Source: a phage. From it: a DNA stretch of 64,000 nt. Made by a program: the position numbers and the translations under genes. Below, one piece after another: positions 48,393-63,015 of the stretch. The notes under the pieces were generated by a model that saw only the letters and a list, made by a program, of their open reading frames with translations, did no database searches and was not told the DNA's origin. Position 1 is the first letter of the stretch, and each line of letters starts with the position of its first letter. The stretch lies in the NCBI GenBank assembly GCA_014816185.1, contig GCA_014816185.1_4095.1. The stretch is one strand, 5' to 3'.

Positions 48393-48598
48393 AAACTATA
48401 ACACGAACCCAATCATACGGTCTTATCTTGAAATACATGGACTTAATGGTGGATATCAGCAAAGACCTTCCTAAAACTGAAATTGAAGTTGCAAGAGCAG
48501 AGATCCGCATGTTGGCTGTACTGAACACAAACCATCAGGAAGATTATGTTGAAGAATGGATTCGATTTTTAATTCAAGATATAAAGAGTAAATTATGA
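48389..48598 (+). CDS. GTNYQE-family small protein
   Basis: LNTNHQEDYV..IKSKL. Confidence 0.55.
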   Translation: MKTITRTQSYGLILKYMDLMVDISKDLPKTEIEVARAEIRMLAVLNTNHQEDYVEEWIRFLIQDIKSKL

Positions 48599-48810
48599 TT
48601 ATTATAGAAAACTCATATCAATATACTGAACGCATCGCTGCCAGACAACTTGAAATCCTCATAATATACGAAGAGACTTCTGATTTAAACTTAGCCGAGG
48701 TATTGGAAAATGATATACTATTGGGTGCATTCTTAGGAACAGACTATCAGAAGTATTATGAGGAAAAGTATTTGTCATCTCTTGAGAAATATATCAGGAG
48801 CAAATTATGA
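48595..48810 (+). CDS. GTNYQE-family small protein
   Basis: LGTDYQKYY..IRSKL. Confidence 0.55.
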   Translation: MIIIENSYQYTERIAARQLEILIIYEETSDLNLAEVLENDILLGAFLGTDYQKYYEEKYLSSLEKYIRSKL

Positions 48811-49019
48811 TTTTTTTAACACCAGAAGAATATAAGAAACGTTTCAATTCCGCACAGGGTGAAATCTTACTTATATACCTTTCAAATGCAGACCTTAACT
48901 TATCAAGGGTATTAGAAAAAGATTTACTTATGGGTGCATTCCTTGATACAGACTTTCAGGTGTATTATGTAGGGGAATACTTAATTGCACTTCAAAATTA
49001 TATCAGGAGTAAACTATGA
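48807..49019 (+). CDS. GTNYQE-family small protein
   Basis: close paralog of 48595. Confidence 0.55.
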   Translation: MIFLTPEEYKKRFNSAQGEILLIYLSNADLNLSRVLEKDLLMGAFLDTDFQVYYVGEYLIALQNYIRSKL

Positions 49020-49234
49020 AACATTTAAGTAACTCCGAGAAGAATAAAATTATCGTTGCTGCAATAAACAAATATTTTACACTTCCTCACACAGAAGGTT
49101 TATGTGTAAGGGAACACAGGATAAACACCACCGATATACGCATGATGGCTGTACTGGGGACGAACTTTCAGGAAGAGTATGTTGTTGCACACATAGTTGC
49201 CCTCACTGATTTAATAAGGGACAAATGCAAATGA
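49016..49234 (+). CDS. GTNYQE-family small protein
   Basis: LGTNFQEEYV. Confidence 0.55.
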   Translation: MKHLSNSEKNKIIVAAINKYFTLPHTEGLCVREHRINTTDIRMMAVLGTNFQEEYVVAHIVALTDLIRDKCK

Positions 49235-49539
49235 AACACTTAACTGATGATGAATTTGAAACTATAATTCGTAAACTAACCCCCATCACAAGGATAGTCT
49301 ACGGTGACCCCAGCCTTACATGGAACCAAATGCGAGCTAAAGTTAATGAGCTATGGTTGCTGTACTTTATGGGGACTCAATATCAAGATAAGTTTTGCAC
49401 AGAATATATCGAACAATTAACGAATGTTATACAGGATAAACTAGATGATTATTTGCTCACAAAACATGAAGATTTTATCAGGAGTGGAGTATCAGACTGC
49501 CCTCTTCTCTCTTCTAAACACCCTCCGCACGAACAATAA
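49225..49539 (+). CDS. GTNYQE-family protein with C-terminal read-through extension
   Basis: MGTQYQDKF; junction reads aaactaGATGA where the family pattern would be aaactATGA, so the stop is lost and the ORF runs 31 codons into the next gene. Confidence 0.45.
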   Translation: MQMKHLTDDEFETIIRKLTPITRIVYGDPSLTWNQMRAKVNELWLLYFMGTQYQDKFCTEYIEQLTNVIQDKLDDYLLTKHEDFIRSGVSDCPLLSSKHPPHEQ

Positions 49540-49717
49540 ACTTTATAATTCCCGTGAAGCTGATATCGTCAACGCTGATGTATATCTTAATAAATTCATA
49601 GGGACTAACTATCAAGAACTGTTCACTCTACGATATATCGCTGCATTGAGAAACGAAATATCAGATAAAACCCGTCAAGCCAGAAGAGAATGGAATAAAC
49701 AATGCGACACAGACTAA
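49445..49717 (+). CDS. GTNYQE-family small protein
   Basis: IGTNYQELF. Confidence 0.5.
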   Translation: MIICSQNMKILSGVEYQTALFSLLNTLRTNNKLYNSREADIVNADVYLNKFIGTNYQELFTLRYIAALRNEISDKTRQARREWNKQCDTD

Positions 49718-49953
49718 ATCACAAAATGTATTGTAAACTATTACAGACACTGGCACAGAAACACTATGACACTGTATCTGAAATATTACCCTATGATATC
49801 ATGCGTTTAATTCATAGTGAGGCAGAGATGCTTGTACTGATGACAGGCACTGATAAAAAAGCAATTGCCAAATCAATAGATATGTTCATCGAAGCACAAT
49901 GTCAACACATTAGAACCGAGATATGGAGACGAGAGAATGATAACACTAAATGA
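49702..49953 (+). CDS. GTNYQE-family-like small protein (divergent)
   Basis: MTGTDKKAI in place of the motif. Confidence 0.45.
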   Translation: MRHRLNHKMYCKLLQTLAQKHYDTVSEILPYDIMRLIHSEAEMLVLMTGTDKKAIAKSIDMFIEAQCQHIRTEIWRRENDNTK

Positions 49954-50152
49954 GTTTCAGTATCATTGGAGGTTACAAACTATCAAATCAAAAGTGTATA
50001 GTATTGTGTTAAACAAATCTATTGCACAAGAGGACAAATGTGTTATAATAGCTGAAATGAAGTTGGGTGCTTTCGTAGGGACAAACTATCAAAACATCTA
50101 CACTGACGTATTGTTAAGTGCCTTACGTAACAAGGTGGTATCCAAAATATGA
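49937..50152 (+). CDS. GTNYQE-family small protein
   Basis: VGTNYQNIY. Confidence 0.55.
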   Translation: MITLNEFQYHWRLQTIKSKVYSIVLNKSIAQEDKCVIIAEMKLGAFVGTNYQNIYTDVLLSALRNKVVSKI

Positions 50153-50367
50153 GAAATTTACAAGGCTTTGAATACATCAGACTCCTGAAAACATGTGGAA
50201 GCAGAAGGAGAATGATATCAAGCGATAAGAGCATCCAAGCTAACCTTAAGCACGCACTAGTAACTGAACTCTATGTAGGTGCACTCTTAGGCACAAACTA
50301 TCAACAAATGTATGTGGATCTATGGATTGACGCTCTACAGAAAGAGGTTAAAAGTAAATGCAAATGA
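50149..50367 (+). CDS. GTNYQE-family small protein
   Basis: LGTNYQQMYV. Confidence 0.55.
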   Translation: MRNLQGFEYIRLLKTCGSRRRMISSDKSIQANLKHALVTELYVGALLGTNYQQMYVDLWIDALQKEVKSKCK

Positions 50368-50576
50368 TTAATTTAAGTAAAGACGAATTTTATGTTATAC
50401 TGGCGAAAACTTATCCAGCACGTAAGGCCGTTTATGATAGTCACATTATTGAACCCTCAAAGAAGTTGATTTTAGTAAATGAGATAAAGATGCTTTCAGT
50501 CTTAGGAACAAACTATCAAGAGAATGCTGTACTGATGTTAATTGATGCCCTCCAGCGAGAGGTTAAACGTAAATGA
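50358..50576 (+). CDS. GTNYQE-family small protein
   Basis: LGTNYQENAV. Confidence 0.55.
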   Translation: MQMINLSKDEFYVILAKTYPARKAVYDSHIIEPSKKLILVNEIKMLSVLGTNYQENAVLMLIDALQREVKRK

Positions 50577-50803
50577 AAATGATTAATTTAACTTACCATG
50601 AATATCAAAAACGTTTAAATGCATCCAGAGATATAAGGATTCAAATATTCAATAACAAAAGATTGAAGCCTGATATCAGGAAAATCAAAATCATAGAAGC
50701 CGTGTTGTGCAACTTCCTAGGGACTAACTATCAGGAAGGTAAGGTAGAAAACTATCTTATAGAACTCATGAATAGTATTGAAAATAAATGTAAGGGTAAT
50801 TAA
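50573..50803 (+). CDS. GTNYQE-family small protein
   Basis: LGTNYQEGKV; 3' end duplicated at 51038-51076. Confidence 0.55.
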   Translation: MKMINLTYHEYQKRLNASRDIRIQIFNNKRLKPDIRKIKIIEAVLCNFLGTNYQEGKVENYLIELMNSIENKCKGN

Positions 50804-50804
50804 C

Positions 50805-51044
50805 ATGAAAATGATTAAATTATCTCAAGCAAAATATAAAGAACGCCTGGTAAAAATTGCACCTGGACTTAATGAAATCCATCACGGAGAAGTCATTAAA
50901 CACGGAAATAAGATGATTATGAAACTTGAGTTAAAGGTGGGTGCATTCATAGGAACAAACTATCAGGAGTATTATGTAGATGAATACATAATCGCACTTA
51001 AGAGATACATTGGAAGAAAACTATATCTACAAACTAAAGAATAG
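50805..51044 (+). CDS. GTNYQE-family small protein
   Basis: start MKMIKLSQ; IGTNYQEYYV. Confidence 0.55.
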   Translation: MKMIKLSQAKYKERLVKIAPGLNEIHHGEVIKHGNKMIMKLELKVGAFIGTNYQEYYVDEYIIALKRYIGRKLYLQTKE

Positions 51045-51073
51045 TATTGAAAATAAATGTAAGGGTAATTAAC

Positions 51074-51394
51074 ATGCAAATGATCAATTTAAGTAAAGAT
51101 GAATATACCGAGCGTATGACAAAAATTACGCACAAACGTAATACAATCTATCACAACCCAGAAATTCAACACAGTAAGAAAATGATTATGATGCGTGAGT
51201 TAAAGATGGGTGTATTCTTAGGAACAAACTATCAAGATACAGAAGTAAATCGCTTAATCGCGGAGTTGCTACTGGAAATCAGAGGTAAGCTGTACTTTCA
51301 TCAAATGACCCAACCACTGAGGTGTACTAAGAAATGTTCAACATCACATTGCAAGAAAGATTCATCCGAATCAACTATGCAATTACCAAATTAG
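51074..51394 (+). CDS. GTNYQE-family protein with C-terminal extension
   Basis: start MQMINLSK; LGTNYQDTEV; extends ~40 codons past family length into next gene. Confidence 0.45.
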   Translation: MQMINLSKDEYTERMTKITHKRNTIYHNPEIQHSKKMIMMRELKMGVFLGTNYQDTEVNRLIAELLLEIRGKLYFHQMTQPLRCTKKCSTSHCKKDSSESTMQLPN

Positions 51395-51549
51395 ATGCTA
51401 CTATAGGATTCCAAAGTCTACCATACAAAACCAGATTGTTATTAGAGTGTGAAGCTAAGTTGGGTGTACTGTTAGGGACGCAACACCAACAACGATATGT
51501 GGAAATCTGGATTGACCTTTTAACCCAAAATATATATGAGAGAATGTAA
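51334..51549 (+). CDS. GTNYQE-family small protein
   Basis: LGTQHQQRYV. Confidence 0.5.
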   Translation: MFNITLQERFIRINYAITKLDATIGFQSLPYKTRLLLECEAKLGVLLGTQHQQRYVEIWIDLLTQNIYERM

Positions 51550-51780
51550 ATGCAAAATGAAATGATATACTTAACGAATGAAGAATTTCAAGAGAAGATG
51601 TTAAAAACCAAAAACATTACTCTTAAGTTCGTTCCAAATCAATCAATATCTGAAGTATCTGCAAATGTATTGTTTCAGAAGCTACCATACGTTCTTGGAA
51701 CTGATAAACAAGAATTTATGGTTCAAAATATGATTGAACATCTTATAATGAGTATTAAGGAAAAAGTAAATGCAAAATGA
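51550..51780 (+). CDS. GTNYQE-family small protein
   Basis: LGTDKQEFMV. Confidence 0.55.
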   Translation: MQNEMIYLTNEEFQEKMLKTKNITLKFVPNQSISEVSANVLFQKLPYVLGTDKQEFMVQNMIEHLIMSIKEKVNAK

Positions 51781-52024
51781 AATGATATACTTAACCTATA
51801 ATGAATACGTCGAGAGATTAGTTCGTGCCAAGAGATATACCAATAAACGTCCAATTGACCTAAACCAAACCCCAGCAGAAAGGAGTGCAGAAGTATTATT
51901 CCAATCACTACCATATCTTCTGGGAACTGATAGACAAGAGGAATATGTTGCACGTATGATTAGATATCTTAAAATCACTATTAAGGAAAAAGTAAATGCA
52001 AATGAAATACTTAACAGACGATGA
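51770..52024 (+). CDS. GTNYQE-family small protein
   Basis: LGTDRQEEYV; paralog of 51550. Confidence 0.55.
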   Translation: MQNEMIYLTYNEYVERLVRAKRYTNKRPIDLNQTPAERSAEVLFQSLPYLLGTDRQEEYVARMIRYLKITIKEKVNANEILNRR

Positions 52025-52247
52025 GTTAAAAGAACGACTAATTAAATCAAGAAAACATACAAATCAACTTCCAAACGACACAAACAAGTCTCCAGCGGAA
52101 AGGAGTGCAGAAGTTTTATACATTCAACTCATGTACTTTCTTGGCACTGACAGACAAGAGTATTACATTGAAAGTATGCTTCGATATCTTAAATTCTCTA
52201 TAAAGGAAAAGATACATGATCAAGTATTTAAAAATCCTAACTGCTAA
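51996..52247 (+). CDS. GTNYQE-family small protein
   Basis: LGTDRQEYYI. Confidence 0.55.
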   Translation: MQMKYLTDDELKERLIKSRKHTNQLPNDTNKSPAERSAEVLYIQLMYFLGTDRQEYYIESMLRYLKFSIKEKIHDQVFKNPNC

Positions 52248-52458
52248 TGAATATCATAAGATTGTAATGAAGACTAATAGTGCTTACGCTAAAAAATCAA
52301 ACCCCAAGTACATACTGGAACACACATTTGAAGAACGTCAATTAGCTTTAGTTGAAGCAAAACTTCTTGCACTATTAGGAACAAACTATCAGGAAGAATA
52401 CAATAGAAAACTAATATACCTTTTAACTAAACATATAAGAAAAAGAAAAAATGCATGA
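52216..52458 (+). CDS. GTNYQE-family small protein
   Basis: LGTNYQEEY. Confidence 0.55.
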   Translation: MIKYLKILTANEYHKIVMKTNSAYAKKSNPKYILEHTFEERQLALVEAKLLALLGTNYQEEYNRKLIYLLTKHIRKRKNA

Positions 52459-52685
52459 AACACTTGACAGATGATGAACATGGGCTTATAGTAATGGATG
52501 TAATCAACATCGAATACAAAAAGTTGATACGCTATCGTTGTTATGAAGATAAGCAACTCGTTCTAGCAGAACAGAAGTTGTTTCGACTCTTAAACACAAA
52601 CTACCAAGCACAATACGAAGAATCGTATATGTACCTTTTGGCGAGGAAAGCAAAAAGAGATTATGAAAATTTTAAGCAAAGGTGA
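52455..52685 (+). CDS. GTNYQE-family small protein
   Basis: LNTNYQAQY. Confidence 0.55.
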   Translation: MKHLTDDEHGLIVMDVINIEYKKLIRYRCYEDKQLVLAEQKLFRLLNTNYQAQYEESYMYLLARKAKRDYENFKQR

Positions 52686-52884
52686 TTCAGTAATATTACT
52701 TATAGAGAGTTCAAGTAAATTCTTAAACATAACACTGTCTGATATAGATGAAGATGATAAAGAAGTACTGAGAGCAGATTTAAGAGTACTGTTACATATC
52801 GGAACAAACCTACAAGAAGAATATGTAGAGTGCTACATTAATGAACTTAAAGAATCAGTACTGAGAAAATGCAAATGCAAATGA
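52663..52884 (+). CDS. GTNYQE-family small protein
   Basis: IGTNLQEEYV. Confidence 0.55.
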   Translation: MKILSKGDSVILLIESSSKFLNITLSDIDEDDKEVLRADLRVLLHIGTNLQEEYVECYINELKESVLRKCKCK

Positions 52885-53108
52885 AAATCATTTCACCCAC
52901 AGAATACAACCAACTATTAAGTAGTTTAATTCTAAAGCTGTTTATAACAAAAAGCATGAAATTACCAGATGATGAAATAAGTATTCTAGTAAGTGAAATC
53001 TATGTTCAAGCTACACTAGGGACTAACTATCAAGAATGCAATATTAATGATTACATCAATGAACTAAAAAGGTTTATCCAATGCAAATGCGAATCATTAC
53101 CGAAGTAG
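52869..53108 (+). CDS. GTNYQE-family small protein
   Basis: LGTNYQECN. Confidence 0.55.
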   Translation: MQMQMKIISPTEYNQLLSSLILKLFITKSMKLPDDEISILVSEIYVQATLGTNYQECNINDYINELKRFIQCKCESLPK

Positions 53109-53323
53109 AATACCTAACAATCATAAATGGACTGTTTTCGAAGTTATTTGCCATTAACACATCAAAACTTCCAGATTCTGATAAAATTATTAAGTTAAAT
53201 GAAATCTACGTTCAAGCTACTCTAGGAACAAACTATCAAGAAGCCAATGTGTATAATTACATTAATACACTCAAAAGGGTAATACAATTAAAATGCACAG
53301 ACAGCACACACACAAACCCCTAG
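53081..53323 (+). CDS. GTNYQE-family small protein
   Basis: LGTNYQEANV; close paralog of 52869. Confidence 0.55.
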   Translation: MQMRIITEVEYLTIINGLFSKLFAINTSKLPDSDKIIKLNEIYVQATLGTNYQEANVYNYINTLKRVIQLKCTDSTHTNP

Positions 53324-53523
53324 GAACAGCAGAATACATTGAACTAATGGCTGCAAACTTCTCATCCTTTAAGAAACTGATGCAAGAATCAAAGAATGAT
53401 TTAGAATATCACATCAAAAGTTCAGATTTAAGATTGCTACTCACTCTAGGAACAGATTCCCAAGAGCGATTTGTCAATGAGCATATTAGAGCACTTTTAA
53501 ATGGCATCAGGAATAAACTATGA
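53293..53523 (+). CDS. GTNYQE-family small protein
   Basis: LGTDSQERFV. Confidence 0.5.
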   Translation: MHRQHTHKPLGTAEYIELMAANFSSFKKLMQESKNDLEYHIKSSDLRLLLTLGTDSQERFVNEHIRALLNGIRNKL

Positions 53524-53735
53524 AGGAAATATCAAATCAAGAGTACTTGGCACTATTCAGGAAGAATAATCACAAATATATGGCACTTGATTCAAGAACT
53601 GATATAAGTGAACTTGAAAAAAATCTTTTGCGTTCAGAGATGATAGTACTGACACTCTTAGGAACACAGCATCAAGAGAGAACTGTTAATTCACACATAG
53701 GGATTCTTATGCAGATAGTTCAGGAAAAGATATGA
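53520..53735 (+). CDS. GTNYQE-family small protein
   Basis: LGTQHQERTV. Confidence 0.55.
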   Translation: MKEISNQEYLALFRKNNHKYMALDSRTDISELEKNLLRSEMIVLTLLGTQHQERTVNSHIGILMQIVQEKI

Positions 53736-53953
53736 GAATCATAACACAACAAGATATTCTTAAGTTCACAAGGGTTCATGCATCTGAATTTGATGCTATA
53801 TTATCAAAAAGTTACAACAACCCTTATACACAAGATGTACATTACAGTGAATTATGGATGTATATACTTTTAGGTACAAATAAGCAAGAGCAAGCCGTAC
53901 AGAAGTATTTGACAGCTTTACGTGATGCTACTGCTAATGGAGTATGTGTTTAA
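53732..53953 (+). CDS. GTNYQE-family small protein
   Basis: LGTNKQEQAV. Confidence 0.55.
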   Translation: MRIITQQDILKFTRVHASEFDAILSKSYNNPYTQDVHYSELWMYILLGTNKQEQAVQKYLTALRDATANGVCV

Positions 53954-53954
53954 T

Positions 53955-54197
53955 ATGAAAGTACTGACAGAACTAGAAATGTATCATAGATTTAATAAGT
54001 ACTATCATTTACTTAAGCCTATACAGAGGATTAAATGTCCATTTGAAGAGAAACAGGTTTTAATCTATGAGCACAAGTTCTTTGTATCATTAGGTACAGA
54101 TCAACAAGAGTACTATTTGACGTTGTACTTGATTACATTAATAGATTTAATTCACTATAAAACCAAACAAGCTAATAAAGAGAAATATGAAAACTAA
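53955..54197 (+). CDS. GTNYQE-family small protein (last in array)
   Basis: start MKVLTELE; LGTDQQEYYL. Confidence 0.5.
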   Translation: MKVLTELEMYHRFNKYYHLLKPIQRIKCPFEEKQVLIYEHKFFVSLGTDQQEYYLTLYLITLIDLIHYKTKQANKEKYEN

Positions 54198-54531
54198 TAT
54201 ACAACTCAAGGTATATAAATCATTTGAACATACATATATCAAAAGTAGTCTATGTAGAGATGTAATGGATTACAAGGGTAAGCCATTCACAATTACCTAT
54301 GATTCTTATGTTAGTGATTTATATATATCATTTGTTAATTACGAAAATAAAATATACAAGCACGTTGATATTAAAGATTTAAGTACTTTATCACCAGAGG
54401 AATACTTTCAGGAATCATTAGTATGGGATTTAGAGTTTCCTATGCCATTAGTACATAAGATGATAGTACTAATGAAAGAATCTAAACAGGAGCCTAATGG
54501 TGATTATGAAGAACACACAGTTGAGTACTGA
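54187..54531 (+). CDS. FQxSL-family protein
   Basis: LSPEEYFQESLVWDLEFP. Confidence 0.55.
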   Translation: MKTNIQLKVYKSFEHTYIKSSLCRDVMDYKGKPFTITYDSYVSDLYISFVNYENKIYKHVDIKDLSTLSPEEYFQESLVWDLEFPMPLVHKMIVLMKESKQEPNGDYEEHTVEY

Positions 54532-54892
54532 TAATATTAAGAGTTATACAAGCTCAAGTACTGTGACAATCGAAGTGAATTCTATTAATGCTGGTAATGC
54601 AGTAGATAAGTTCTTTATTGCTCAAGGGTACAGGAAAGATATTCATCAATATTGTTCAGTATATGGGGAGTACAATAGTACTGAAGATATAATTTATTGG
54701 TCAACACATCAAGATTATCTAACTAAAATTGGAGTTCCAGATGTTAGTACTTTATCTGAAGAAGAATACTTTCAGTACAGCTTAGTACATGATGTACCTA
54801 TACCTTTAGGGTTAATCAAGGGTATACAGGAAGAGGTTCATAAGCTTAAATCCATGAGTAAAGGTACTTTCATTAGAACAGTGCAATACTAG
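54497..54892 (+). CDS. FQxSL-family protein
   Basis: LSEEEYFQYSLVHDVP; start may be 54506. Confidence 0.55.
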   Translation: MVIMKNTQLSTDNIKSYTSSSTVTIEVNSINAGNAVDKFFIAQGYRKDIHQYCSVYGEYNSTEDIIYWSTHQDYLTKIGVPDVSTLSEEEYFQYSLVHDVPIPLGLIKGIQEEVHKLKSMSKGTFIRTVQY

Positions 54893-54951
54893 CTTGACAG
54901 TACTTTTCATTACTGATATAGTACACTAACGTTAATCATAGGGTAAAAATT

Positions 54952-55197
54952 ATGTTAAATTTTTTAAATTTCCTTATCGTTTTGTGTATTGTTCTTGGGA
55001 TTGCACCATTTGTATTGTATTTCATGGATTCAGATGAAATGCAGAAGATGAATTGCACAAGGACAGGACAGAGTAGAGTAGAGACGATTCTTATGCCTGT
55101 TACGGTTATTGTTAACAACATGCCCATTACGAACATGGTCCCTACCCTAACGACAACGTACCAGTACTCTTGTGCTGACGGTGAGAGGTGGAGATGA
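54952..55197 (+). CDS. small membrane protein
   Basis: 81 aa; hydrophobic N-terminus. Confidence 0.45.
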   Translation: MLNFLNFLIVLCIVLGIAPFVLYFMDSDEMQKMNCTRTGQSRVETILMPVTVIVNNMPITNMVPTLTTTYQYSCADGERWR

Positions 55198-55505
55198 AAT
55201 TTAATATAGCAAAAACATCGAGTATATGTATTTTTGGTTATGCTGATGAGTTAGGTGATATTGACATTCTTTTGTACAAAAAGGATGGTGTTATGCATTT
55301 CAAGTACCAGGATGAAGAGGCAGACAATTATCCTTTACCTAATTTAGTACAAATGCAGGAAGATGAATTATTCCAGTACAGCTTAGTATACGACATTGAT
55401 ATTTGCACGATGCCAGTACTAATTAGTATTCAAAAAGTGATGCTCGATATGTATGATAAGCTAATACAAGGTACATCAGGGAGAATCATTGAAATTGACA
55501 TATAA
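55188..55505 (+). CDS. FQxSL-family protein
   Basis: QEDELFQYSLVYDID. Confidence 0.55.
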   Translation: MEMKFNIAKTSSICIFGYADELGDIDILLYKKDGVMHFKYQDEEADNYPLPNLVQMQEDELFQYSLVYDIDICTMPVLISIQKVMLDMYDKLIQGTSGRIIEIDI

Positions 55506-55701
55506 GAATATACCTAATGCATATGAAATGAAGTACAGGGAGTTTATTAAAAATGTACACACCGATCCTTTTAATATCAAAATATCAGATTTTGATGTAT
55601 TATTTTATCTAGGGACAATAGCACAGGATCAATGCGTTGATAAGCTCATATGGTCCTTGAAAATGGAGATACAATGCAGACCCAAATATATAAAAAGGTA
55701 G
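55489..55701 (+). CDS. GTNYQE-like small protein embedded in FQxSL array
   Basis: FYLGTIAQDQCV. Confidence 0.45.
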   Translation: MKLTYKNIPNAYEMKYREFIKNVHTDPFNIKISDFDVLFYLGTIAQDQCVDKLIWSLKMEIQCRPKYIKR

Positions 55702-55937
55702 ATTCTTTATTGTACGCTTCAAAGTACAGGGATTTTTGTTTACGAGGGGGAGAGGAAGATTTCTCTCTGAGATTATCTGAATTTAATATGTTATTTTATC
55801 TTGGTACAAAAGATCAAGAAGATACAGTACAGAAATTTATCAAGCACCTTGAACAAAAAATTCATATGCAAATTTTTATGCTTAAGGTACATAATGAGAT
55901 AAACAAATATGAACCCAACAATAGTACAGGATCTTAA
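55674..55937 (+). CDS. GTNYQE-like small protein embedded in FQxSL array
   Basis: start MQTQIYKK; FYLGTKDQEDTV. Confidence 0.45.
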   Translation: MQTQIYKKVDSLLYASKYRDFCLRGGEEDFSLRLSEFNMLFYLGTKDQEDTVQKFIKHLEQKIHMQIFMLKVHNEINKYEPNNSTGS

Positions 55938-56443: not shown

Positions 56444-56647
56444 ATGCAAAAGATTAATACGATAACATTAAATGCATTACAGGATTCATTATTAGATAGT
56501 ATTAAGATGTATTACAATATACATTTGAAGGGTGGTATTGATGATTACGATTATTATTTGAGTTTAATTACATTTGAGCACCTTTCAGTACAGGACAGGA
56601 TTTTACATCCTACAAATCCTAGGTATCCATCGATAGGTAAATTATGA
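56444..56647 (+). CDS. hypothetical small protein
   Basis: 67-aa ORF. Confidence 0.4.
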   Translation: MQKINTITLNALQDSLLDSIKMYYNIHLKGGIDDYDYYLSLITFEHLSVQDRILHPTNPRYPSIGKL

Positions 56648-57198
56648 ATGAGATAGAGTTATTAGCACACAAGATAAGTACAATAATGCTTATCCTCAAT
56701 AACAACCATCCTATATCGCAGATAGATGGAATCCTGAGTCAGAGGACAGGTGGTAGTTTATATTTGTCCATAAACGCAGATATCGCAAGGAAATACATTG
56801 ATATTGACATTGATGTTGAAATCGAATATGATACAACGGGGATTGTTGGTGTAGGTGCATTAATCAGTTCAAATCCAGTATCAGCATCCCCATTGACCAA
56901 AGATGTTAGTACAGGATTCGAAGGGTATTTGTGGTACAATACCAATGATGATTATTTTATATATCAGCATTCCAATACAAATTATGATGAAGACAAATTT
57001 CAGTTCATAGACCCTTATGATGAAGCTGAAGTATTTCAAAAATCATTAATCACAAAACCGCATGAGATGATGTATCTAATTTTATTCAGTACAATGCATT
57101 TGAATCCATTAATTAAAGGTTTAAAATTTTATATTCAATTAAATTTAGTCCATGTAGTTTATGATTTATTAATGCAAGGATATAGTTATGAAGTATAA
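56644..57198 (+). CDS. FQxSL-family protein
   Basis: DEAEVFQKSLITKP. Confidence 0.5.
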   Translation: MNEIELLAHKISTIMLILNNNHPISQIDGILSQRTGGSLYLSINADIARKYIDIDIDVEIEYDTTGIVGVGALISSNPVSASPLTKDVSTGFEGYLWYNTNDDYFIYQHSNTNYDEDKFQFIDPYDEAEVFQKSLITKPHEMMYLILFSTMHLNPLIKGLKFYIQLNLVHVVYDLLMQGYSYEV

Positions 57199-57499
57199 AA
57201 TGATGTATACCCCAGATATGATTTATGTTGAATTAGAAGATGATGACGATGGGTGGAATTTGATTTATTCAAGAAGTTCAGGTTGGTACATGGCACATTT
57301 AAATGATTCGATAGTTACAGATTATTTTGTAGATTTCAATACATTATCCGATGAAGAATTGTTCCAACAGCAATTAGTGATTGACACGGGTGGTTATGAT
57401 GTCTTATTATTAAAAAAGATACAGAAAGCTGTTATTGATTTTAAGCCCATGATATGGCAAAGGAAATATTATGACCTCGAAGTACCGTACCAGCAATGA
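57188..57499 (+). CDS. FQxSL-family protein
   Basis: SDEELFQQQLVIDTG. Confidence 0.5.
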   Translation: MKYKMMYTPDMIYVELEDDDDGWNLIYSRSSGWYMAHLNDSIVTDYFVDFNTLSDEELFQQQLVIDTGGYDVLLLKKIQKAVIDFKPMIWQRKYYDLEVPYQQ

Positions 57500-58037
57500 T
57501 ATTCAGTACACCTACGCTAATGCAATCCTTATGGGACAAAAGTTAGCTTGTATTGTTGCAGCCTTATATAATGCACAGAAATATCACAAGCGTCATTTCC
57601 ACAAATGTATTGGTATTATTCCATCGAAGTACAATACATATATTGCGTGCACGAGTCATTTTGATAAACGATTCAATACACCAGATACACCAAATGCCCG
57701 TAGTGTTATTGGTCTTTTGGATTTCGCACCTGGTGCTGTTATTGGAAAGAATGATTTAGAGTACGCATGGTATAATAAAAATGCCCCGTTAGTAATGGTA
57801 ACATATGATAACGAAACGAACAACGCAATAGAGTACAATACATATAAATCAGAGGAAGAATTTTTCCAAGGTTCATTGCTTGTACCAGTGCGTTTATTGT
57901 TTTATAATGTCCTTATTAGTACAGTACACAATAGTCCATTACACAAGAATCACAAAATTAATTTCAATTTTTGTGCTTATGCGATTGATGGTGTGTATGA
58001 GTGTTTAATGGAGGTATTGAGTTATGAAGCTGAATAA
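57471..58037 (+). CDS. FQxSL-family protein
   Basis: SEEEFFQGSLLVP. Confidence 0.5.
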   Translation: MTSKYRTSNDIQYTYANAILMGQKLACIVAALYNAQKYHKRHFHKCIGIIPSKYNTYIACTSHFDKRFNTPDTPNARSVIGLLDFAPGAVIGKNDLEYAWYNKNAPLVMVTYDNETNNAIEYNTYKSEEEFFQGSLLVPVRLLFYNVLISTVHNSPLHKNHKINFNFCAYAIDGVYECLMEVLSYEAE

Positions 58038-58365
58038 TACATTTGATATTAATAAGTTAAGAGAATGGTTTTATAGTATTGAAATTGAAGCCATCCCGTA
58101 TCATAGATATGAACAATATAATTTAACCAGTATTGATATCAGTGAGTTGTACGCGTATTATCAAAGTGCATTAGAGATGCATAAGTTATTTTTGAGTACA
58201 GATTTTGTTCTAAATTACAATTTTGAGGAATTTAATAATTATAATTTAGTACAGAAATATGTAGTAGCAAAGTACATGTACCTTCAAGGAATTACAAGTA
58301 TAGTGGAATTCAATACAGTCCTTGCTTTAGTTGAGGTAATTTTATGCAGTACATGTATGATTTAG
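58024..58365 (+). CDS. hypothetical protein
   Basis: 113-aa ORF. Confidence 0.45.
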   Translation: MKLNNTFDINKLREWFYSIEIEAIPYHRYEQYNLTSIDISELYAYYQSALEMHKLFLSTDFVLNYNFEEFNNYNLVQKYVVAKYMYLQGITSIVEFNTVLALVEVILCSTCMI

Positions 58366-58850
58366 AGTTCAGCTTAGATGCTGCATTTAAATATGTTCAC
58401 AAGATAGAAACAATATACAGTACATTATGTGCAATAAAATCAGTAACAGAAGAGCTTGATGTTGGTGAAAAATATCAGGTATGGAATAATACATTTTTAA
58501 ATAAAGAACGTTGCTCTACGGGGTTTAATATTTTAACATTTAATCCCAGCAATTGTTACCCAGAGAAGCATGAACGTTATCCGAATGACGACATGTGGTT
58601 TGAGTACAAAGAAGATTGTGATATGTCGTTCATTGAAGTTCCTGATGATTTTAATGCACAAGATTTAACAGACGAGTGGTGGTTCCAGCAGAATTTAGTC
58701 CACGATGATATTGATTTATTTTTTTATGTAGTATTTAAAATGCTTTATCACAACAATATAGTACAAGATAGTGTATTTTTTTCATGTCTATATATTGATG
58801 ATTTGTACAATGAAATTCAAATCAACATGCCCAGAACGCCTGTATCGTAA
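58344..58850 (+). CDS. FQxSL-family protein
   Basis: TDEWWFQQNLVHDDID. Confidence 0.5.
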   Translation: MQYMYDLEFSLDAAFKYVHKIETIYSTLCAIKSVTEELDVGEKYQVWNNTFLNKERCSTGFNILTFNPSNCYPEKHERYPNDDMWFEYKEDCDMSFIEVPDDFNAQDLTDEWWFQQNLVHDDIDLFFYVVFKMLYHNNIVQDSVFFSCLYIDDLYNEIQINMPRTPVS

Positions 58851-58902
58851 GATATGGGCTTTTTTCGTTTTGGTATTGACATAGAAGACCAAAGCTGTTA
58901 TC

Positions 58903-59445
58903 ATGTGTATTCATTTTAAAGGAGAACATATAGTGAGTTTCATAATCCCAAGTACATACGAAGATGCATCAAGTGCAGTTCATAAGATTCATTATATTTT
59001 TAATTTAATTATTAAATCTGCAAAAATTAAAATGTATGCACCTCTTGTGACAAATAATCGAAATGAAGAAATTTTTATTAGCACAGACAAAATTATTTTT
59101 CCATATTTCAATGAAGATAGATTGTGGTTCATACATTTAGCTGCATTACAAAAATATAAGATGTCAATTCGTAATAATTTGGTTATACCGTTATATCATC
59201 CCGATATTGGAGAGGATGAATATTTTCAGTACAGCACAGTACACCGCCATGAAGATATCTTTGCTGCTATGCTTATTGCTAAATTGAACACCGTTGATTT
59301 GGAGCAGTACAAATACAATAATAAATCATGTAAGATCATAATCCCTGCATTCATAGCTCTTTATGATTATGTGGTGCATAACAAAAAAGATGATACATAT
59401 GCTTTCAATGAAGAGTATTTGAATTTTTTTAAGGAGAACATATGA
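58903..59445 (+). CDS. FQxSL-family protein
   Basis: GEDEYFQYSTVHRHED; possible GTG start at 58933 after AAGGAG. Confidence 0.5.
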   Translation: MCIHFKGEHIVSFIIPSTYEDASSAVHKIHYIFNLIIKSAKIKMYAPLVTNNRNEEIFISTDKIIFPYFNEDRLWFIHLAALQKYKMSIRNNLVIPLYHPDIGEDEYFQYSTVHRHEDIFAAMLIAKLNTVDLEQYKYNNKSCKIIIPAFIALYDYVVHNKKDDTYAFNEEYLNFFKENI

Positions 59446-59969
59446 GCAGTGAAGTGCAGAAATCAATGACATTCAATGAAATTGGTGCATTTAAAGATAA
59501 GATTATTGATTGCATTGAATACATGATTTGTAGTAATATCGAAAGTATTGAGATATTTAACAAGACAAATCGCTCTTACCATATGATGTACATTGCAAAC
59601 AATAATGGTATCATTCCATTTATTTCGGATAGTACAATATGGTACGCATGTGATACGAAAAAATACACAGCAGGTTCGTATAGCTTAGGGTCACATACGG
59701 AATTGATTATTCCTGAGCATTGTATGCAAGAAGAAGAATATTTTCAAATGCAATGTATACATTCACCATTAGTGTTGTTTAGTTTATATATTATACCTTA
59801 TATCACCAAATGTGTTCATGAGAATAAAGCTCCGTGGAATCATGAATTTGTATCGTTGAAGTTATTGTATAATGTATTAGTAGAATATTATGATTACAGG
59901 CACAATGGTACAATCAGTGATGTATGGGATTTTGAATCGCTAAGGGTGAAAACATACACAGGTGAATGA
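59442..59969 (+). CDS. FQxSL-family protein
   Basis: QEEEYFQMQCIHSP. Confidence 0.5.
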   Translation: MSSEVQKSMTFNEIGAFKDKIIDCIEYMICSNIESIEIFNKTNRSYHMMYIANNNGIIPFISDSTIWYACDTKKYTAGSYSLGSHTELIIPEHCMQEEEYFQMQCIHSPLVLFSLYIIPYITKCVHENKAPWNHEFVSLKLLYNVLVEYYDYRHNGTISDVWDFESLRVKTYTGE

Positions 59970-59970
59970 T

Positions 59971-60585
59971 ATGACCAGAATTAAAATGTATGATTTGATG
60001 CAGTACAGTAAAATTGCCATTCCGGTGCTTAATAAAGTGCTGGATGCATTCATTGCCAAATACCCTGAGAATTCAGTGTTATGTATTCCATTTAGTGTTC
60101 CAGATAAAGATGATATATTCCAAGTGAATGTCAGTACACGTGGTATTACATTACAGCAGAAATACATGGATACGGAATATTATGGAATAAAGTTGGATTC
60201 AGTACAGGGTTCAAAATCAGCCTATGATTTTTTTGTTCCTAATAATATAGAGTCATGGGAAACAAACATTTCAAAGAAAGATGAAAATGATGTTCCTATT
60301 AGTGGTGTGTTCAACAATAAAGTTTTTTATTATTACGAAACCGACAAATTCCCTGAAGAGTTATATTACAATTCAGAAATGAATGAAGATGTAGATGCAT
60401 TCATGTTTCAATTATCGTTAGTACATGATATCATTGATGTTCAAGAGTTAAGAGCAGAAATCAATTTAGCTAAAGAGTTATCGGACATGCTGCCACCGTT
60501 TAGTATGCTTTTTTGTGAAGGTGGTTATTTTTCAAAAGAAGTGTTTGAACATTTCGTAGATGTTGTAAAAGGGTTGGATATATAG
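59971..60585 (+). CDS. FQxSL-family protein
   Basis: start ATG 59971 (MTRIK); VDAFMFQLSLVHDI. Confidence 0.5.
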   Translation: MTRIKMYDLMQYSKIAIPVLNKVLDAFIAKYPENSVLCIPFSVPDKDDIFQVNVSTRGITLQQKYMDTEYYGIKLDSVQGSKSAYDFFVPNNIESWETNISKKDENDVPISGVFNNKVFYYYETDKFPEELYYNSEMNEDVDAFMFQLSLVHDIIDVQELRAEINLAKELSDMLPPFSMLFCEGGYFSKEVFEHFVDVVKGLDI

Positions 60586-60586
60586 T

Positions 60587-60781
60587 ATGCTTACAGTTGA
60601 TGTTAAACAAAAATACCGTAAGTTTGATTGGTTCACCGACAGTTTCCAGCTTGAATTATTACATTTGAATATCTGTGAAACATTATGTGCAGAAACACAA
60701 GATGAATTTGATGATAGAGTGATGAACATAGTAATGCTTTCTTGTTTTAAACATTTTGGTTATTTTTTCGGACAGAATTGA
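60587..60781 (+). CDS. hypothetical small protein
   Basis: 64-aa ORF. Confidence 0.4.
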   Translation: MLTVDVKQKYRKFDWFTDSFQLELLHLNICETLCAETQDEFDDRVMNIVMLSCFKHFGYFFGQN

Positions 60782-60789
60782 GGTAAAAA

Positions 60790-61305
60790 ATGCATCAACA
60801 CAAGCATCATTCATATGATTTTGCAATTAACATTATGAAGTTCATTCGAGCGTTGGAGGATGGTAAGCTTAGTCATAAGTACAAGAAAGAGGGTAACAAT
60901 TGGTTCAGAAATGATTCCGAGTTCAGTTGTCATAAAATCGTGTATAGTAATCAGTACAGTGCCAATTACCTACAAGATGTAGTGATGTGTTTTGAATATG
61001 TGTTGCAGTTCAGGGGTTCAATCCAAGATGAGTTGATGGAGAACATGTACATCCGATACCTTCCAATGCTCAAAGATGAAAATGTATTATTAAATTCAAT
61101 ATACCAACGAGTTCGTGAAATTGAGTGCAGGGATATATTAGATACAGAAGAATCGTATTTCCAGCAATCCCTGATTTATGCACCTGATTTATTACAGGTA
61201 CATAATTTGTTTAATACATTACGTCAAAACATCGGTACAGACATATTTTTGTCATTATCGGATTATGATACATTTGTCAAAGATTTAGAGGAAATAGGCT
61301 TATGA
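60790..61305 (+). CDS. FQxSL-family protein
   Basis: TEESYFQQSLIYAPD. Confidence 0.5.
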   Translation: MHQHKHHSYDFAINIMKFIRALEDGKLSHKYKKEGNNWFRNDSEFSCHKIVYSNQYSANYLQDVVMCFEYVLQFRGSIQDELMENMYIRYLPMLKDENVLLNSIYQRVREIECRDILDTEESYFQQSLIYAPDLLQVHNLFNTLRQNIGTDIFLSLSDYDTFVKDLEEIGL

Positions 61306-61646
61306 GTCGATTTTCGGTTTATATAGTAAACGTCAGTAAAGATGGTAGTTTAATTGAATTTGATGTAGTTGATAACAATGATAATTCATATGGTATTAAG
61401 GTACAGGACAATGATGTGCAGTTCAGTACAAGGACAAATTTTGAGAATCCAGTCCAAGTTCCGAATTTCATAGAAGATGAAGCTGCACGATTCCAATACG
61501 AAACGGCATATGACAATGTACATATGCATATTATTATGCAAACGAATTTAGTTCAATTAGTTCCTTTGTTCAGACAAAATATATATGTACATGAAGTCTC
61601 GATTAATGGCATTCAAAGTTCCGTTTTGTTTGGTACAAATATGTAA
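61302..61646 (+). CDS. FQxSL-family-like protein
   Basis: DEAARFQYETAYDN. Confidence 0.45.
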   Translation: MSRFSVYIVNVSKDGSLIEFDVVDNNDNSYGIKVQDNDVQFSTRTNFENPVQVPNFIEDEAARFQYETAYDNVHMHIIMQTNLVQLVPLFRQNIYVHEVSINGIQSSVLFGTNM

Positions 61647-61656
61647 GGAAAGTACA

Positions 61657-62208
61657 ATGAGTTCAATGAGTTTATTAGATACATTAGAAAAAGACAGAAG
61701 TGCCATTAAGCGTTTAAAAGAGCAAGTACAAAAGATTGTATACAACGTTGATAAGTTTGAAGTCCCAGGAAGATTTGGTGATATTTCCCATACGGAGATC
61801 AAATCCCTTAAGTCAGATTTGTTGATTAAAAATAAAAATGGGTTGATTTTAGTTTTGAGTTCAGATATGATGGGGGCAACACATAGTTATAATGCCGTAT
61901 CGGTGCGTTCCGAGTGTGAAGGTATATATCTATCACAGGGTTTCAATAGCGAGACACAGGTTTGTTTTTGTGATGCAGTACATGACCCTATGAAGTTCAC
62001 GAGAAGTGAAGCCCAAGCGTTATTAGAGCTATCAGACGAGAGTTTGTTTCAGTACAGTACAATGTATGACAATGATAAGCTTCGTTGTATGTACGCTGTA
62101 AAGCATTATACACAGGAGTTCTCTGGATTTGCATACCTTTTAGTTAGAACCAATACCAGATATATTGATATGTTAGAAGATTACATCGATAAAGTTGTTA
62201 ATGTATGA
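61657..62208 (+). CDS. FQxSL-family protein
   Basis: start MSSMSLLD after AGGA; SDESLFQYSTMYDND. Confidence 0.5.
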   Translation: MSSMSLLDTLEKDRSAIKRLKEQVQKIVYNVDKFEVPGRFGDISHTEIKSLKSDLLIKNKNGLILVLSSDMMGATHSYNAVSVRSECEGIYLSQGFNSETQVCFCDAVHDPMKFTRSEAQALLELSDESLFQYSTMYDNDKLRCMYAVKHYTQEFSGFAYLLVRTNTRYIDMLEDYIDKVVNV

Positions 62209-62230
62209 TGTATTATTATGTGATGGGATA

Positions 62231-62398
62231 ATGCTGATGAAAGAGTTATTTGAAGATCAGTTCAATACATATGTGGATAATATTCTTTATTCCAGCCGTG
62301 CTAGTCAACGAGGAAATCGTGCTTACAATATAGATTACCTATTAGTGGTGCTGAGTTCACAGTACACCTACGCTGTACAGAGGACATATTATGAATAA
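62231..62398 (+). CDS. hypothetical small protein
   Basis: start uncertain (track 62195). Confidence 0.3.
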   Translation: MLMKELFEDQFNTYVDNILYSSRASQRGNRAYNIDYLLVVLSSQYTYAVQRTYYE

Positions 62399-62594
62399 TT
62401 TTAGAGATGTTGCTAAGGAGAAGTTCAAGTGCAGTTTAGATTTTGGGTTAAATGATTTTCTTACATGCACAATGTACAGGAATGATGATTATGAGCAATC
62501 CGTAATTTCGTTGCACAGATATTTCGAAATAATTTACGCAAGATATCTTAGAAGGTTAGAGGGAATAGGGGATTGGAATTATGATTACGTTTGA
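62391..62594 (+). CDS. hypothetical small protein
   Basis: 67-aa ORF. Confidence 0.4.
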   Translation: MNNFRDVAKEKFKCSLDFGLNDFLTCTMYRNDDYEQSVISLHRYFEIIYARYLRRLEGIGDWNYDYV

Positions 62595-62817
62595 AGAACC
62601 AGAAACAATGAGTCCATATACGATGAAAGGTTTTGAATTCATGATGGATTCGATTTTGAAGAATTCGTGTTTAGTACACAATCCTGAGCGTGCAACAGTG
62701 AGGGAATATCAGGACAATGCATTACAGCGTGTAATGAATATGTACAGGAATACGAGTCGCAAGCTTTGTGCGTTGAAAAGGATTGAAGAAATCAAGGTTT
62801 CTAGGCTGAATAAATAG
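62581..62817 (+). CDS. hypothetical small protein
   Basis: 78-aa ORF. Confidence 0.4.
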   Translation: MITFEEPETMSPYTMKGFEFMMDSILKNSCLVHNPERATVREYQDNALQRVMNMYRNTSRKLCALKRIEEIKVSRLNK

Positions 62818-63015
62818 AGACGTTTCATTTTGACAGGCCGCAGGGGGGGGTCAAAAAAATTTCCGCTGAAAAACATGCTAAGGTATATGTTTAATATAAA
62901 GTTTTATATTGTGTTTTTCAGAGTACAGTTCATGTTTCCTTAAACAAAAAATACCCCGCCGCCGAACGTGCTCCTTATATTGGAGTTTACCTTATTAATT
63001 ATAGTAGAGATTAAG

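What the first reader, a model, noticed from the sequence alone, without database searches (positions are those of the whole stretch)
55489..55937. Two GTNYQE-like genes inside the FQxSL array
Genes 55489..55701 (FYLGTIAQDQCV) and 55674..55937 (FYLGTKDQEDTV) carry a recognizable variant of the GTNYQE core more than 1 kb past that array's end, surrounded by FQxSL genes. The two families may be functionally linked or the arrays exchange members.
Basis: seen in the sequence. Interest (0 to 1): 0.4.

Follow-up and report, generated by a model that had tools for sequence, protein, structure and literature searches.

The report
Two stray members of a phage gene family
Two small overlapping genes in a giant E. 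coli phage are genuine but divergent, fast-evolving and dispensable copies of a 28-gene tandem family of unknown function; they lie a little beyond the main array, among genes of a second, unrelated family, which is ordinary gene-array turnover rather than a new system.

Summary
The window comes from a PBECO4-like jumbo coliphage (Asteriusvirus). ORFs 55489..55701 (A) and 55674..55937 (B) carry the quoted motifs. A profile built only from the 28 tandem LGTNYQE genes (47968..54197) hits A and B and no other ORF of 350 in the window (E 3e-7 and 4e-8; 2000 shuffles of each reach at most 12 bits against 25 and 28 observed). Both also match only phrog_4148, the PHROG of the array genes. A and B are each other's closest paralogs (38% identity, 196/200 bootstraps) and have good ribosome-binding sites. 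They are intact in 11-12 of 14 fetched relatives, with dN/dS about 0.4-0.5. They evolve fastest among nine neighbouring genes, show allele replacement against a 98-100% identical background, and are deleted in some relatives. AlphaFold models place the conserved G-T..Q at the junction of the last two helices of a small helical bundle that has no informative structural relative. The FQxSL family is unrelated in sequence, but the two families are interleaved again in other Asteriusvirus genomes and in a distant uncultured lineage, are co-oriented and overlap. The array starts 68 nt right of the inferred left terminal repeat. Function is unknown; I infer early accessory host-interaction proteins. 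Interest is low.

The parts
55489..55701 (+). Gene A: 70-aa divergent member of the LGTNYQE family (phrog_4148); core FYLGTIAQDQ
   Evidence: ORF. GGAGA at 55480-55484, 5 nt before the TTG start. Array profile 25.0 bits, E 3e-7. phrog_4148 E 1.7e-6. Intact in 11 relatives, median dN/dS 0.44.
55674..55937 (+). Gene B: 87-aa divergent member of the same family; core FYLGTKDQED and a longer C-terminal helix. Overlaps A by 28 nt and the next gene by 29 nt.
   Evidence: ORF. GGAGA at 55665-55669, 5 nt before the ATG. The 87-aa product is in the database with exactly this sequence (P0098). Array profile 27.9 bits, E 3.8e-8. phrog_4148 E 6.1e-5. AF2 model pLDDT 92.7, helices 11-23, 30-41, 48-79. dN/dS about 0.40.
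55583..55628 (+). Copy in A of a 46-nt direct repeat across the motif-coding core (partner in B at 55774-55819, 76% identical, 191 nt apart)
   Evidence: the repeat finder family D4. A and B are 38% identical over 58 aa, E 3e-10, and form a clade in 196/200 bootstraps.
55774..55819 (+). Copy in B of the same 46-nt direct repeat
47968..54197 (+). Main tandem array of 28 LGTNYQE-family genes (66-115 aa, mostly overlapping stop/start)
   Evidence: ORFs and alignment. Every member scores 61-92 bits against the family profile. A canonical member was modelled at pLDDT 96.4.
54187..55505 (+). Segment separating the main array from A/B: FQxSL genes 54187..54531, 54497..54892 and 55188..55505, plus 54952..55197 (81 aa, phrog_8826)
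   Evidence: ORFs, FQ profile hits, phrog hits. Gene content of this segment differs between relatives.
56644..63922 (+). Continuation of the FQxSL array (12 profile-positive genes), interspersed with genes of neither family
47601..47900 (.). Last 300 nt homologous to the end of the 20,993-bp direct terminal repeat of phage fEgEco12; the inferred repeat boundary is at about 47,900, 68 nt before the first array gene
   Evidence: Termini of fEgEco12 were confirmed experimentally (PMC13070987). The last 200 nt of that record equal its positions 20794-20993, and these positions align to window 47601-47900.

Best explanation
A (55489..55701) and B (55674..55937) are two real, co-transcribed protein-coding genes. 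They arose from each other by tandem duplication and form a divergent branch of the same small-protein family as the 28-gene LGTNYQE array (PHROG 4148).

The shared G-T-x-x-Q core is a fold-determining element, not a catalytic site. In the models it forms the loop and first turn between the last two helices of a small helical bundle, and in canonical members the Thr bridges to the N-terminal strand.

The pair lies outside the main array because this part of the genome, the unique DNA immediately to the right of the left direct terminal repeat, is a hot spot of duplication, deletion, insertion and allele exchange between phages. That turnover interleaves members of the GT family with members of the unrelated FQxSL family.

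Shown here: homology, coding status, relaxed but real purifying selection, dispensability, mosaicism, and the position next to the terminal repeat.

Inferred (my estimate about 0.35): the proteins are early-expressed, non-enzymatic binders used for host takeover or counter-defence. On this view the paralogs are diversified against variable host targets, and A/B are the most rapidly changing members.
For: Homology:
- The array-only profile hits only A and B outside the array.
- The shuffle control gives at most 12.4 bits against 25-28 observed.
- The reciprocal profile hits 24 of 28 array genes.
- Both match only phrog_4148.
- In the 30-sequence alignment T is invariant and G, Q and L are conserved in at least 90%.
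- BFVD fold search returns Asteriusvirus small proteins first, with probability 0.8-0.98.

Tandem pair:
- 38% identity, E 3e-10.
- 196/200 bootstraps for an A+B clade.
- A 46-nt DNA repeat joins the two cores.

Real genes:
- Shine-Dalgarno sites precede both starts.
- The ORFs are intact in 11-12 of 14 relatives despite dS up to about 1.
- dN/dS is 0.40-0.54.

Fold:
- AF2 pLDDT 92.7 for B and 96.4 for a canonical member.
- Both have the same helix order, with the motif between the last two helices.

Plasticity:
- Identity to phAPEC6 drops to 62-77% at 55500-55800 while the flanks are 98-100%.
- A and B are the fastest evolving of nine neighbouring genes.
- A is deleted in EC.P1 and fEgEco12 (and, by the same partial-coverage blast pattern, WPEC3); the A/B core is deleted in frame in Salmonella phage SD-15_S21.
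- Other relatives carry extra GT genes and a GT-domain fusion among the FQ genes.
- A distant uncultured lineage repeats the interleaving.

Position:
- The repeat boundary maps to 47,900 and the first array gene starts at 47,968.
- Called ORFs of the repeat-equivalent stretch read so far (from about 39.9 kb) and of both arrays are on the + strand, and GC skew turns positive at about 26 kb, near the mapped left end.

The early-gene inference rests on established knowledge. Phage SPO1's host-takeover module lies in its terminal redundancy, and phage T5's pre-early genes lie in its left terminal repeat.
Against: - No direct evidence exists for expression time, binding partners or any phenotype.
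- No Pfam, PADLOC or PDB relative was found, so the physiological role is an analogy.
- Injection polarity and the early transcription programme of Asteriusvirus are not documented in the papers I could read.
- The terminal-repeat boundary is transferred from fEgEco12, not measured for this phage.
- Pairwise similarity of A or B to single array members is weak (E 0.001-0.02); homology rests on profiles.
- Placing A/B next to the last array members in the NJ tree has no demonstrated support.
Confidence: 0.8

Rival explanations
1. GT-family and FQxSL-family proteins are functional partners, for example heteromeric pairs or effector/modulator pairs. On this view A/B sit where they do because they work with the adjacent FQxSL genes.
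For: - The two families are adjacent and interleaved in every Asteriusvirus genome examined, and again in a distant uncultured lineage whose DNA no longer aligns.
- Both have the same narrow distribution (36 and 30 phage records, all Escherichia/Salmonella Asteriusvirus; profile searches).
- The stop of FQxSL gene 55188..55505 overlaps the start of A by 17 nt, which suggests translational coupling.
Against: - SD-15_S21 lost the A/B core but keeps the upstream FQxSL gene intact.
- Copy numbers do not match: 30 GT against 15 FQ genes in the window.
- No GT-FQ fusion exists; the C-terminal part of the 269-aa GT-domain protein does not match the FQ profile.
- Conserved gene order is common in phages without any functional coupling.
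Confidence: 0.15
2. A and B are decaying remnants of array genes. They are no longer functional and are merely not yet interrupted.
For: - They have the highest dN/dS and the lowest amino-acid identity among nine neighbouring genes.
- They have been deleted, singly or together, in several relatives.
- They are poorly annotated in the PBECO4 reference: A is missing and B is truncated to 49 aa.
Against: - The ORFs are intact in 11-12 relatives although dS reaches about 1.
- dN/dS is about 0.4-0.5, clearly below 1.
- Start codons, Shine-Dalgarno sites and the family's invariant residues are conserved.
- The fold prediction is confident.
Confidence: 0.07
3. The proteins are small helix-turn-helix-like DNA-binding regulators, with LGTxxQ as the turn plus recognition helix.
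For: The pattern hydrophobic-L-G-T-x-x-Q-x-x-V between two helices looks superficially like an HTH turn (sequence only).
Against: - The inter-helix loop is 6 residues and the last helix is 20-32 residues, unlike an HTH.
- There is no Pfam HTH match.
Confidence: 0.05
4. The resemblance is chance or convergence caused by the AT-rich, Lys/Ile/Asn/Tyr-rich composition of this genome.
For: The proteins are short, and pairwise E-values to single array genes are only 0.001-0.02. A score of 25-28 bits would be marginal in a search of billions of proteins.
Against: See the observation check: no other ORF of 350 scores, shuffles score at most 12.4 bits, and the reciprocal profile, the independent PHROG profile, the same helix order and the same invariant positions all agree. 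The 121Q-type allele of A scores 36-40 bits.
Confidence: 0.03

Closest known systems
PHROG phrog_4148 (unknown function): the LGTNYQE small-protein family of Asteriusvirus (e.g. 121Q gp319-341)
   Same: A and B match this profile and no other. They share the invariant G-T..Q..L positions, the size class and the helix order.
   Different: - The N-terminus is Y-K-x-(I/V)-(P/N)...K-Y-R-(E/D)-F instead of M-K-x-I-x-L-(S/T)-x-x-E-Y.
- N-Y is replaced within the core.
- B has a longer C-terminal helix.
- The pair lies 1.3 kb outside the main array.
- They score 25-28 bits, against 61-92 bits for array members.
Host-takeover or pre-early gene blocks at phage genome ends (SPO1 terminal-redundancy module; T5 pre-early genes in the left terminal repeat)
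   Same: Many small genes of one orientation at or next to a long direct terminal repeat. The comparison itself rests on my own knowledge of those phages.
   Different: There is no sequence or fold relationship. The array lies just outside the repeat, not inside it. Timing of expression and injection polarity are unknown for Asteriusvirus.
Terminal multigene families and gene 'accordions' of large DNA viruses (African swine fever virus MGF families; poxvirus K3L amplification)
   Same: Tandem paralog arrays near a genome end whose copy number and content vary between close relatives, with fast-evolving members. The analogy is from my own knowledge.
   Different: These are eukaryotic viruses with unrelated proteins. 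No link to host range or immune evasion has been demonstrated here.
FQxSL family of the same phage (split over phrog_13866, 33987, 19795 and others)
   Same: Same operon-like block, same orientation, same narrow taxonomic range.
   Different: No detectable sequence relationship. The proteins are larger (103-207 aa) and only F and Q are invariant.

Membership tests
LGTNYQE family (phrog_4148) | Significant match to the family profile built without the candidates | tested here: met
   27.9 and 25.0 bits, E 3.8e-8 and 3e-7 among 350 ORFs. phrog_4148 E 6.1e-5 and 1.7e-6. Shuffles reach at most 12.4 bits. The reciprocal profile hits 24/28 members.
LGTNYQE family (phrog_4148) | Conserved core G-T-x-x-Q followed by a hydrophobic heptad pattern with a conserved L | tested here: met
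   In alignment A1, T45 is invariant and G44, Q48 and L59 are at least 90% conserved across 30 sequences including A and B.
LGTNYQE family (phrog_4148) | Small helical bundle with the core motif between the last two helices | tested here: met
   B: helices 11-23, 30-41, 48-79, pLDDT 92.7. Canonical member: helices 8-17/19-27, 33-47, 54-73, pLDDT 96.4. No superposition of the two models was possible with the tools.
LGTNYQE family (phrog_4148) | N-terminal M-K-x-I-x-L-(S/T)-x-x-E-Y segment, which in the canonical model contacts the core Thr through a beta-bridge | tested here: not met
   A and B have Y-K-x-(I/V)-(P/N) and K-Y-R-(E/D)-F instead. No strand is predicted in B. This marks a subfamily; it is not a reason to exclude homology.
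LGTNYQE family (phrog_4148) | Position inside the contiguous head-to-tail array right of the terminal repeat | tested here: not met
   The pair lies 1,292 nt beyond the last array gene, separated by three FQxSL genes and one other gene. A and B are themselves a head-to-tail pair.
FQxSL family | Match to the family profile, with the invariant F-Q motif | tested here: not met
   The FQ profile hits only its 15 members. A, B and all GT genes are absent even at E<10. hhalign of GT against FQ gives probability 0.24%.
Helix-turn-helix DNA-binding domains | Structural similarity to a known HTH domain | tested here: not met
Known anti-defence or defence proteins | Match to a PADLOC, Pfam or PDB entry with such a function | tested here: not met
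   PADLOC gives only sub-threshold noise. Pfam gives none. PADLOC holds defence systems, not anti-defence proteins, so this is a weak test.
Early / host-takeover genes | Transcription in the first minutes of infection | not testable with these tools
   No Asteriusvirus transcriptome was found in the paper library. Only position next to the terminal repeat and uniform orientation are available.

The most novel reading that the evidence does not exclude
The GT and FQxSL families together form one conserved two-component early module next to the terminal repeat of Asteriusvirus-like jumbo phages. In this reading small GT helical proteins act as partners (adaptors, inhibitors or chaperones) of specific FQxSL proteins. 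The interleaving, including A/B behind FQxSL gene 55188..55505, would then mark cognate pairs that diversify together against host targets, making this a new kind of phage host-interaction system.
Probability: 0.1. Interest if true: 0.6.

Novelty: new member of a known kind. Interest (0 to 1): 0.22.

Why it matters
On its own it matters little. It corrects and extends the annotation of a catalogued but uncharacterised phage protein family: in the PBECO4 reference, A is unannotated and B is truncated. It defines a divergent 'YK/KYRxF' subfamily. It also shows that the region just right of the left terminal repeat of Asteriusvirus is a hot spot of paralog turnover and allele exchange.

If the arrays are host-takeover or counter-defence genes, A and B are the most variable members and have been lost naturally. 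That would make them convenient first candidates for deletion and host-range experiments in a group of jumbo phages that are being considered for therapy.

Tried and rejected
- Pfam, PADLOC and PHROG scans gave no function.
- I tested whether the two families are distantly related, because N-Y-Q-E and Y-F-Q-E look alike: hhalign probability is 0.24%, rejected.
- I tested whether the 269-aa GT-domain protein of EC.P1/UB is a GT-FQ fusion: its C-terminal part does not match the FQ profile, rejected.
- I tested whether A/B belong to the same subfamily as the 'YK..P' genes that dominate the array of a distant uncultured lineage. A profile that included those genes said yes, but that test was circular. 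With a profile of Asteriusvirus A/B orthologues only, the scores are about equal to those of the general family profile, so the assignment is left open.
- The promoter/terminator scan found no more sites than shuffled sequence gives.
- There are no tRNA genes in the window.
- Literature searches found no description of these families and no Asteriusvirus transcriptome.
I made a phylogeny of the GT family alone instead.

Full report
**Source of the window.** Window 54000-58000 is 99.1% identical to Escherichia phage PBECO4 and 91-98% identical to about 20 other Asteriusvirus jumbo phages of 350-385 kb. No Pfam family matches any of the small proteins discussed here.

**The observation.**
- The + strand carries 28 head-to-tail ORFs of 66-115 aa from 47968 to 54197, all with an L-G-T-N-Y-Q-E-like core.
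- From 54187 onward there is a looser array of 103-207-aa proteins with an (E-E)-x-F-Q-x-S-L motif: 15 profile-positive members up to 63922, interspersed with genes of neither family.
- Gene A (55489..55701, TTG start, 70 aa) reads ...DVLFYLGTIAQDQCVDKL....
- Both starts have GGAGA 5 nt upstream. The 87-aa B product is present in the public protein collection with exactly this sequence (P0098).
- A overlaps the stop of the upstream FQxSL gene by 17 nt, B overlaps A by 28 nt, and the next gene overlaps B by 29 nt.
- No minus-strand ORF of 40 aa or more overlaps the pair.

**Is the resemblance more than chance?**
- I built a profile from the 28 array genes only and scored all 350 ORFs of at least 40 aa in six frames. 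Array members score 61-92 bits. The only other ORFs reported, even at E<10, are B (27.9 bits, E 3.8e-8) and A (25.0 bits, E 3e-7). The alignments run through helix 2, the core and the last helix.
- Two thousand shuffles of each protein reach at most 10.2 bits (A) and 12.4 bits (B).
- A profile built only from A/B orthologues of other phages hits 24 of the 28 array genes at E<1e-4.
- Independently, both proteins match only phrog_4148, the PHROG that the array genes match.
- In the joint 30-sequence alignment the Thr is invariant, and Gly, Gln and a downstream Leu are at least 90% conserved.
- The 121Q-type allele of A scores 36-40 bits against the array profile.

**What A and B are.**
- They are each other's closest relatives: 38% identity over 58 aa, E 3e-10. 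They form a clade in 196 of 200 bootstrap replicates. A 46-nt DNA repeat (55583-55628 and 55774-55819, 76% identical) covers the motif-coding core. Together these indicate a tandem-duplicated pair.
- They share an N-terminal Y-K-x-(I/V)-(P/N) and K-Y-R-(E/D)-F signature in place of the canonical M-K-x-I-x-L-(S/T)-x-x-E-Y.
- Orthologous ORFs are intact in 11 (A) and 12 (B) of 14 fetched relatives, although synonymous divergence reaches about 1. Median dN/dS is 0.44 and 0.40. They are therefore real genes under purifying but relaxed selection.
- Among nine neighbouring genes compared in the same ten phages, A and B evolve fastest. Median amino-acid identity is 52% and 76%, against 87-97% for most neighbours (72% for the gene just downstream). 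dN/dS is 0.54 and 0.48, against 0.07-0.32.

**Fold.**
- AlphaFold2, using only the window's paralogs as the alignment, gives confident models.
- B has pLDDT 92.7 with helices 11-23, 30-41 and 48-79.
- The canonical member 50573..50800 has pLDDT 96.4 with helices 8-17/19-27, 33-47 and 54-73, plus a one-residue bridge between residue 4 and the core Thr51.
- In both, L-G-T-x-x lies in the loop before the last helix and the conserved Gln starts that helix. I read the motif as a structural element of the fold (inference).
- Foldseek against BFVD returns uncharacterised small proteins of slurp01, 121Q and PBECO4 first, and nothing annotated.

**Distribution.**
- A profile search of 1.84 billion cluster representatives finds only 96 clusters. 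All are 49-122 aa, except one 269-aa protein with the GT domain at its N-terminus.
- Among cultured phages, single-sequence tblastn finds a GT member in 36 records and an FQxSL member in 30. All are Escherichia or Salmonella Asteriusvirus.
- An FQxSL profile search returns only Asteriusvirus-like proteins.

**Relation of the two families.** The FQxSL profile hits none of the GT genes and neither A nor B. Profile-profile comparison gives probability 0.24% over 7 columns. The families are unrelated in sequence, and the C-terminal 200 aa of the 269-aa GT-domain protein do not match the FQxSL profile.

**Plasticity of the locus.**
- Against phAPEC6 the window is 98-100% identical from 54000 to 55500 and from 55950 to 57900. 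Identity falls to 62-77% between 55500 and 55800, that is gene A and the 5' part of B. With dS of about 1 for A between the two allele types, this is allele replacement by recombination.
- In EC.P1 and fEgEco12, gene A is deleted and B keeps a new Shine-Dalgarno site and ATG; WPEC3 shows the same partial blast coverage.
- In Salmonella phage SD-15_S21 (and, by blast coverage, its three sister phages) a deletion joins about the sixth codon of A in frame to the C-terminal tail of B. This removes the whole conserved core of both and leaves the flanking genes. Both genes are therefore dispensable, at least on Salmonella.
- Ecwhy_1, A4, Turkey3, UE-S1 and fEgEco12 carry an extra canonical GT gene (TVGTNYQADSV) between FQxSL genes. 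EC.P1 and UB carry the 269-aa GT-domain protein just upstream of the FQxSL gene that precedes A.
- In a distant uncultured lineage only one gene of a 6-kb stretch still aligns at the DNA level to Asteriusvirus, and tblastn finds no cultured phage. Its contigs are L016, L018 and L019. There, GT-type and FQxSL-type genes alternate repeatedly.
- Many GT genes of that lineage have the 'YK..P' N-terminus of A/B. With a non-circular profile their subfamily assignment is ambiguous.

**Position in the genome.**
- The termini of phage fEgEco12 were determined by PhageTerm and confirmed by restriction digests; its direct terminal repeat is 20,993 bp (PMC13070987).
- Its position 1 aligns to window 25,685, where GC skew and coding strand switch.
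- The last 200 nt of its record equal its positions 20794-20993, and that repeat end aligns to window 47,900. The first array gene starts at 47,968.
- The GT array, then the FQxSL array, therefore fill the unique DNA immediately right of the left terminal repeat, all on one strand.
- Records that include both repeat copies hold the array region only once, but hold a repeat-internal gene twice.

**Mechanism.**
- Shown: A and B are a tandem pair of divergent family members. They are translated from their own ribosome-binding sites within a tightly packed co-oriented block, and they are accessory, fast-evolving and subject to recombination and loss.
- Inferred: the position next to a long terminal repeat, the small size, the lack of enzymatic features, the copy-number variation and the rapid change recall known cases. 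These are the host-takeover module of SPO1, the pre-early genes of T5 and the terminal multigene families of large eukaryotic DNA viruses (my own knowledge). I therefore favour early-expressed binding proteins aimed at variable host targets, with a probability of about one in three.
- A functional GT-FQxSL partnership remains possible (about 0.1-0.15) but is not required by the data.

**Verdict.** This is a new, divergent subfamily of an already catalogued family of unknown function, in a plastic array region. It is useful for annotation and as an experimental lead, but it is not a new kind of system.

Noticed in passing
window 25,685 and 47,900: Window position 25,685 aligns to base 1 of phage fEgEco12, whose termini were determined experimentally, and coincides with the GC-skew and coding-strand switch. 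Window 25,685-47,900 corresponds to its 20,993-bp direct terminal repeat. The window therefore probably spans a physical genome end in a circularly permuted assembly.
   Followed up: partly
window 54187-63922 (FQxSL genes): The only invariant residues of the FQxSL family are F-Q, within (E/D)-E-(Y/L/F)-F-Q-x-S. This resembles the P3-P1 residues of TEV/3C-type protease sites (Y-F-Q | S/G). I did not look for a cognate protease or for any evidence of cleavage.
   Followed up: no
L004 1989..2798 (EC.P1) and L014 989..1798 (UB): A 269-aa protein has an N-terminal LGTNYQE domain (LYLGTNYQEAAQEQYINALKEEI) and about 200 further residues with no significant Pfam match, only a weak PHROG hit (phrog_21447, E 0.007), and no FQxSL match. 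It sits just upstream of the FQxSL gene that precedes A. It is the only multi-domain member of the family that was found.
   Followed up: partly
L016 (ENA ERZ14189038 NODE_1, 101 kb), L018, L019: An uncultured jumbo-phage lineage, not represented in the phage collection, carries a 13-gene GT-type array dominated by 'YK..P' N-termini and interleaved with FQxSL-type genes. A ParE-like gene lies a few kb upstream in L016.
   Followed up: partly
L003 about 3090-3180 (Salmonella phage SD-15_S21), equivalent to window 55509-55841: An in-frame deletion fuses the first codons of A to the C-terminal tail of B, leaving a 37-codon remnant without the conserved core. The four Salmonella-infecting Asteriusvirus records all show this reduced coverage. 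They are close siblings, so this is probably a single event.
   Followed up: partly
window 50778-50806 and 51047-51075: Two adjacent array genes are preceded by the same 9-codon stretch (MKINVRVIN from a TTG), and each coincides with a promoter-like TTGAAA-17-TAACAT site. This is probably a repeated non-coding or regulatory segment inside the array rather than a true N-terminal extension.
   Followed up: no
window 58838-58904: A terminator-like hairpin with a T-run (58838-58859) is followed directly by a strong promoter-like site (58876-58904, TTGACA-17-TATCAT with TG). It lies in one of the few intergenic gaps of the FQxSL array and may mark a transcription-unit boundary.
   Followed up: no
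L001 10492..10940 (PBECO4 KC295538 / NC_027364): In the PBECO4 reference annotation gene A is not annotated and gene B is truncated to its last 49 codons (AGC34890.1). Several array genes are also missing.
   Followed up: yes
window 54894-55197: An intergenic gap holds a near-consensus promoter-like site (54894-54922, TTGACA-17-TATAGT with TG) upstream of 54952..55197. That 81-aa, strongly conserved protein (phrog_8826, dN/dS 0.07) has a hydrophobic N-terminus and is embedded among the FQxSL genes.
   Followed up: no
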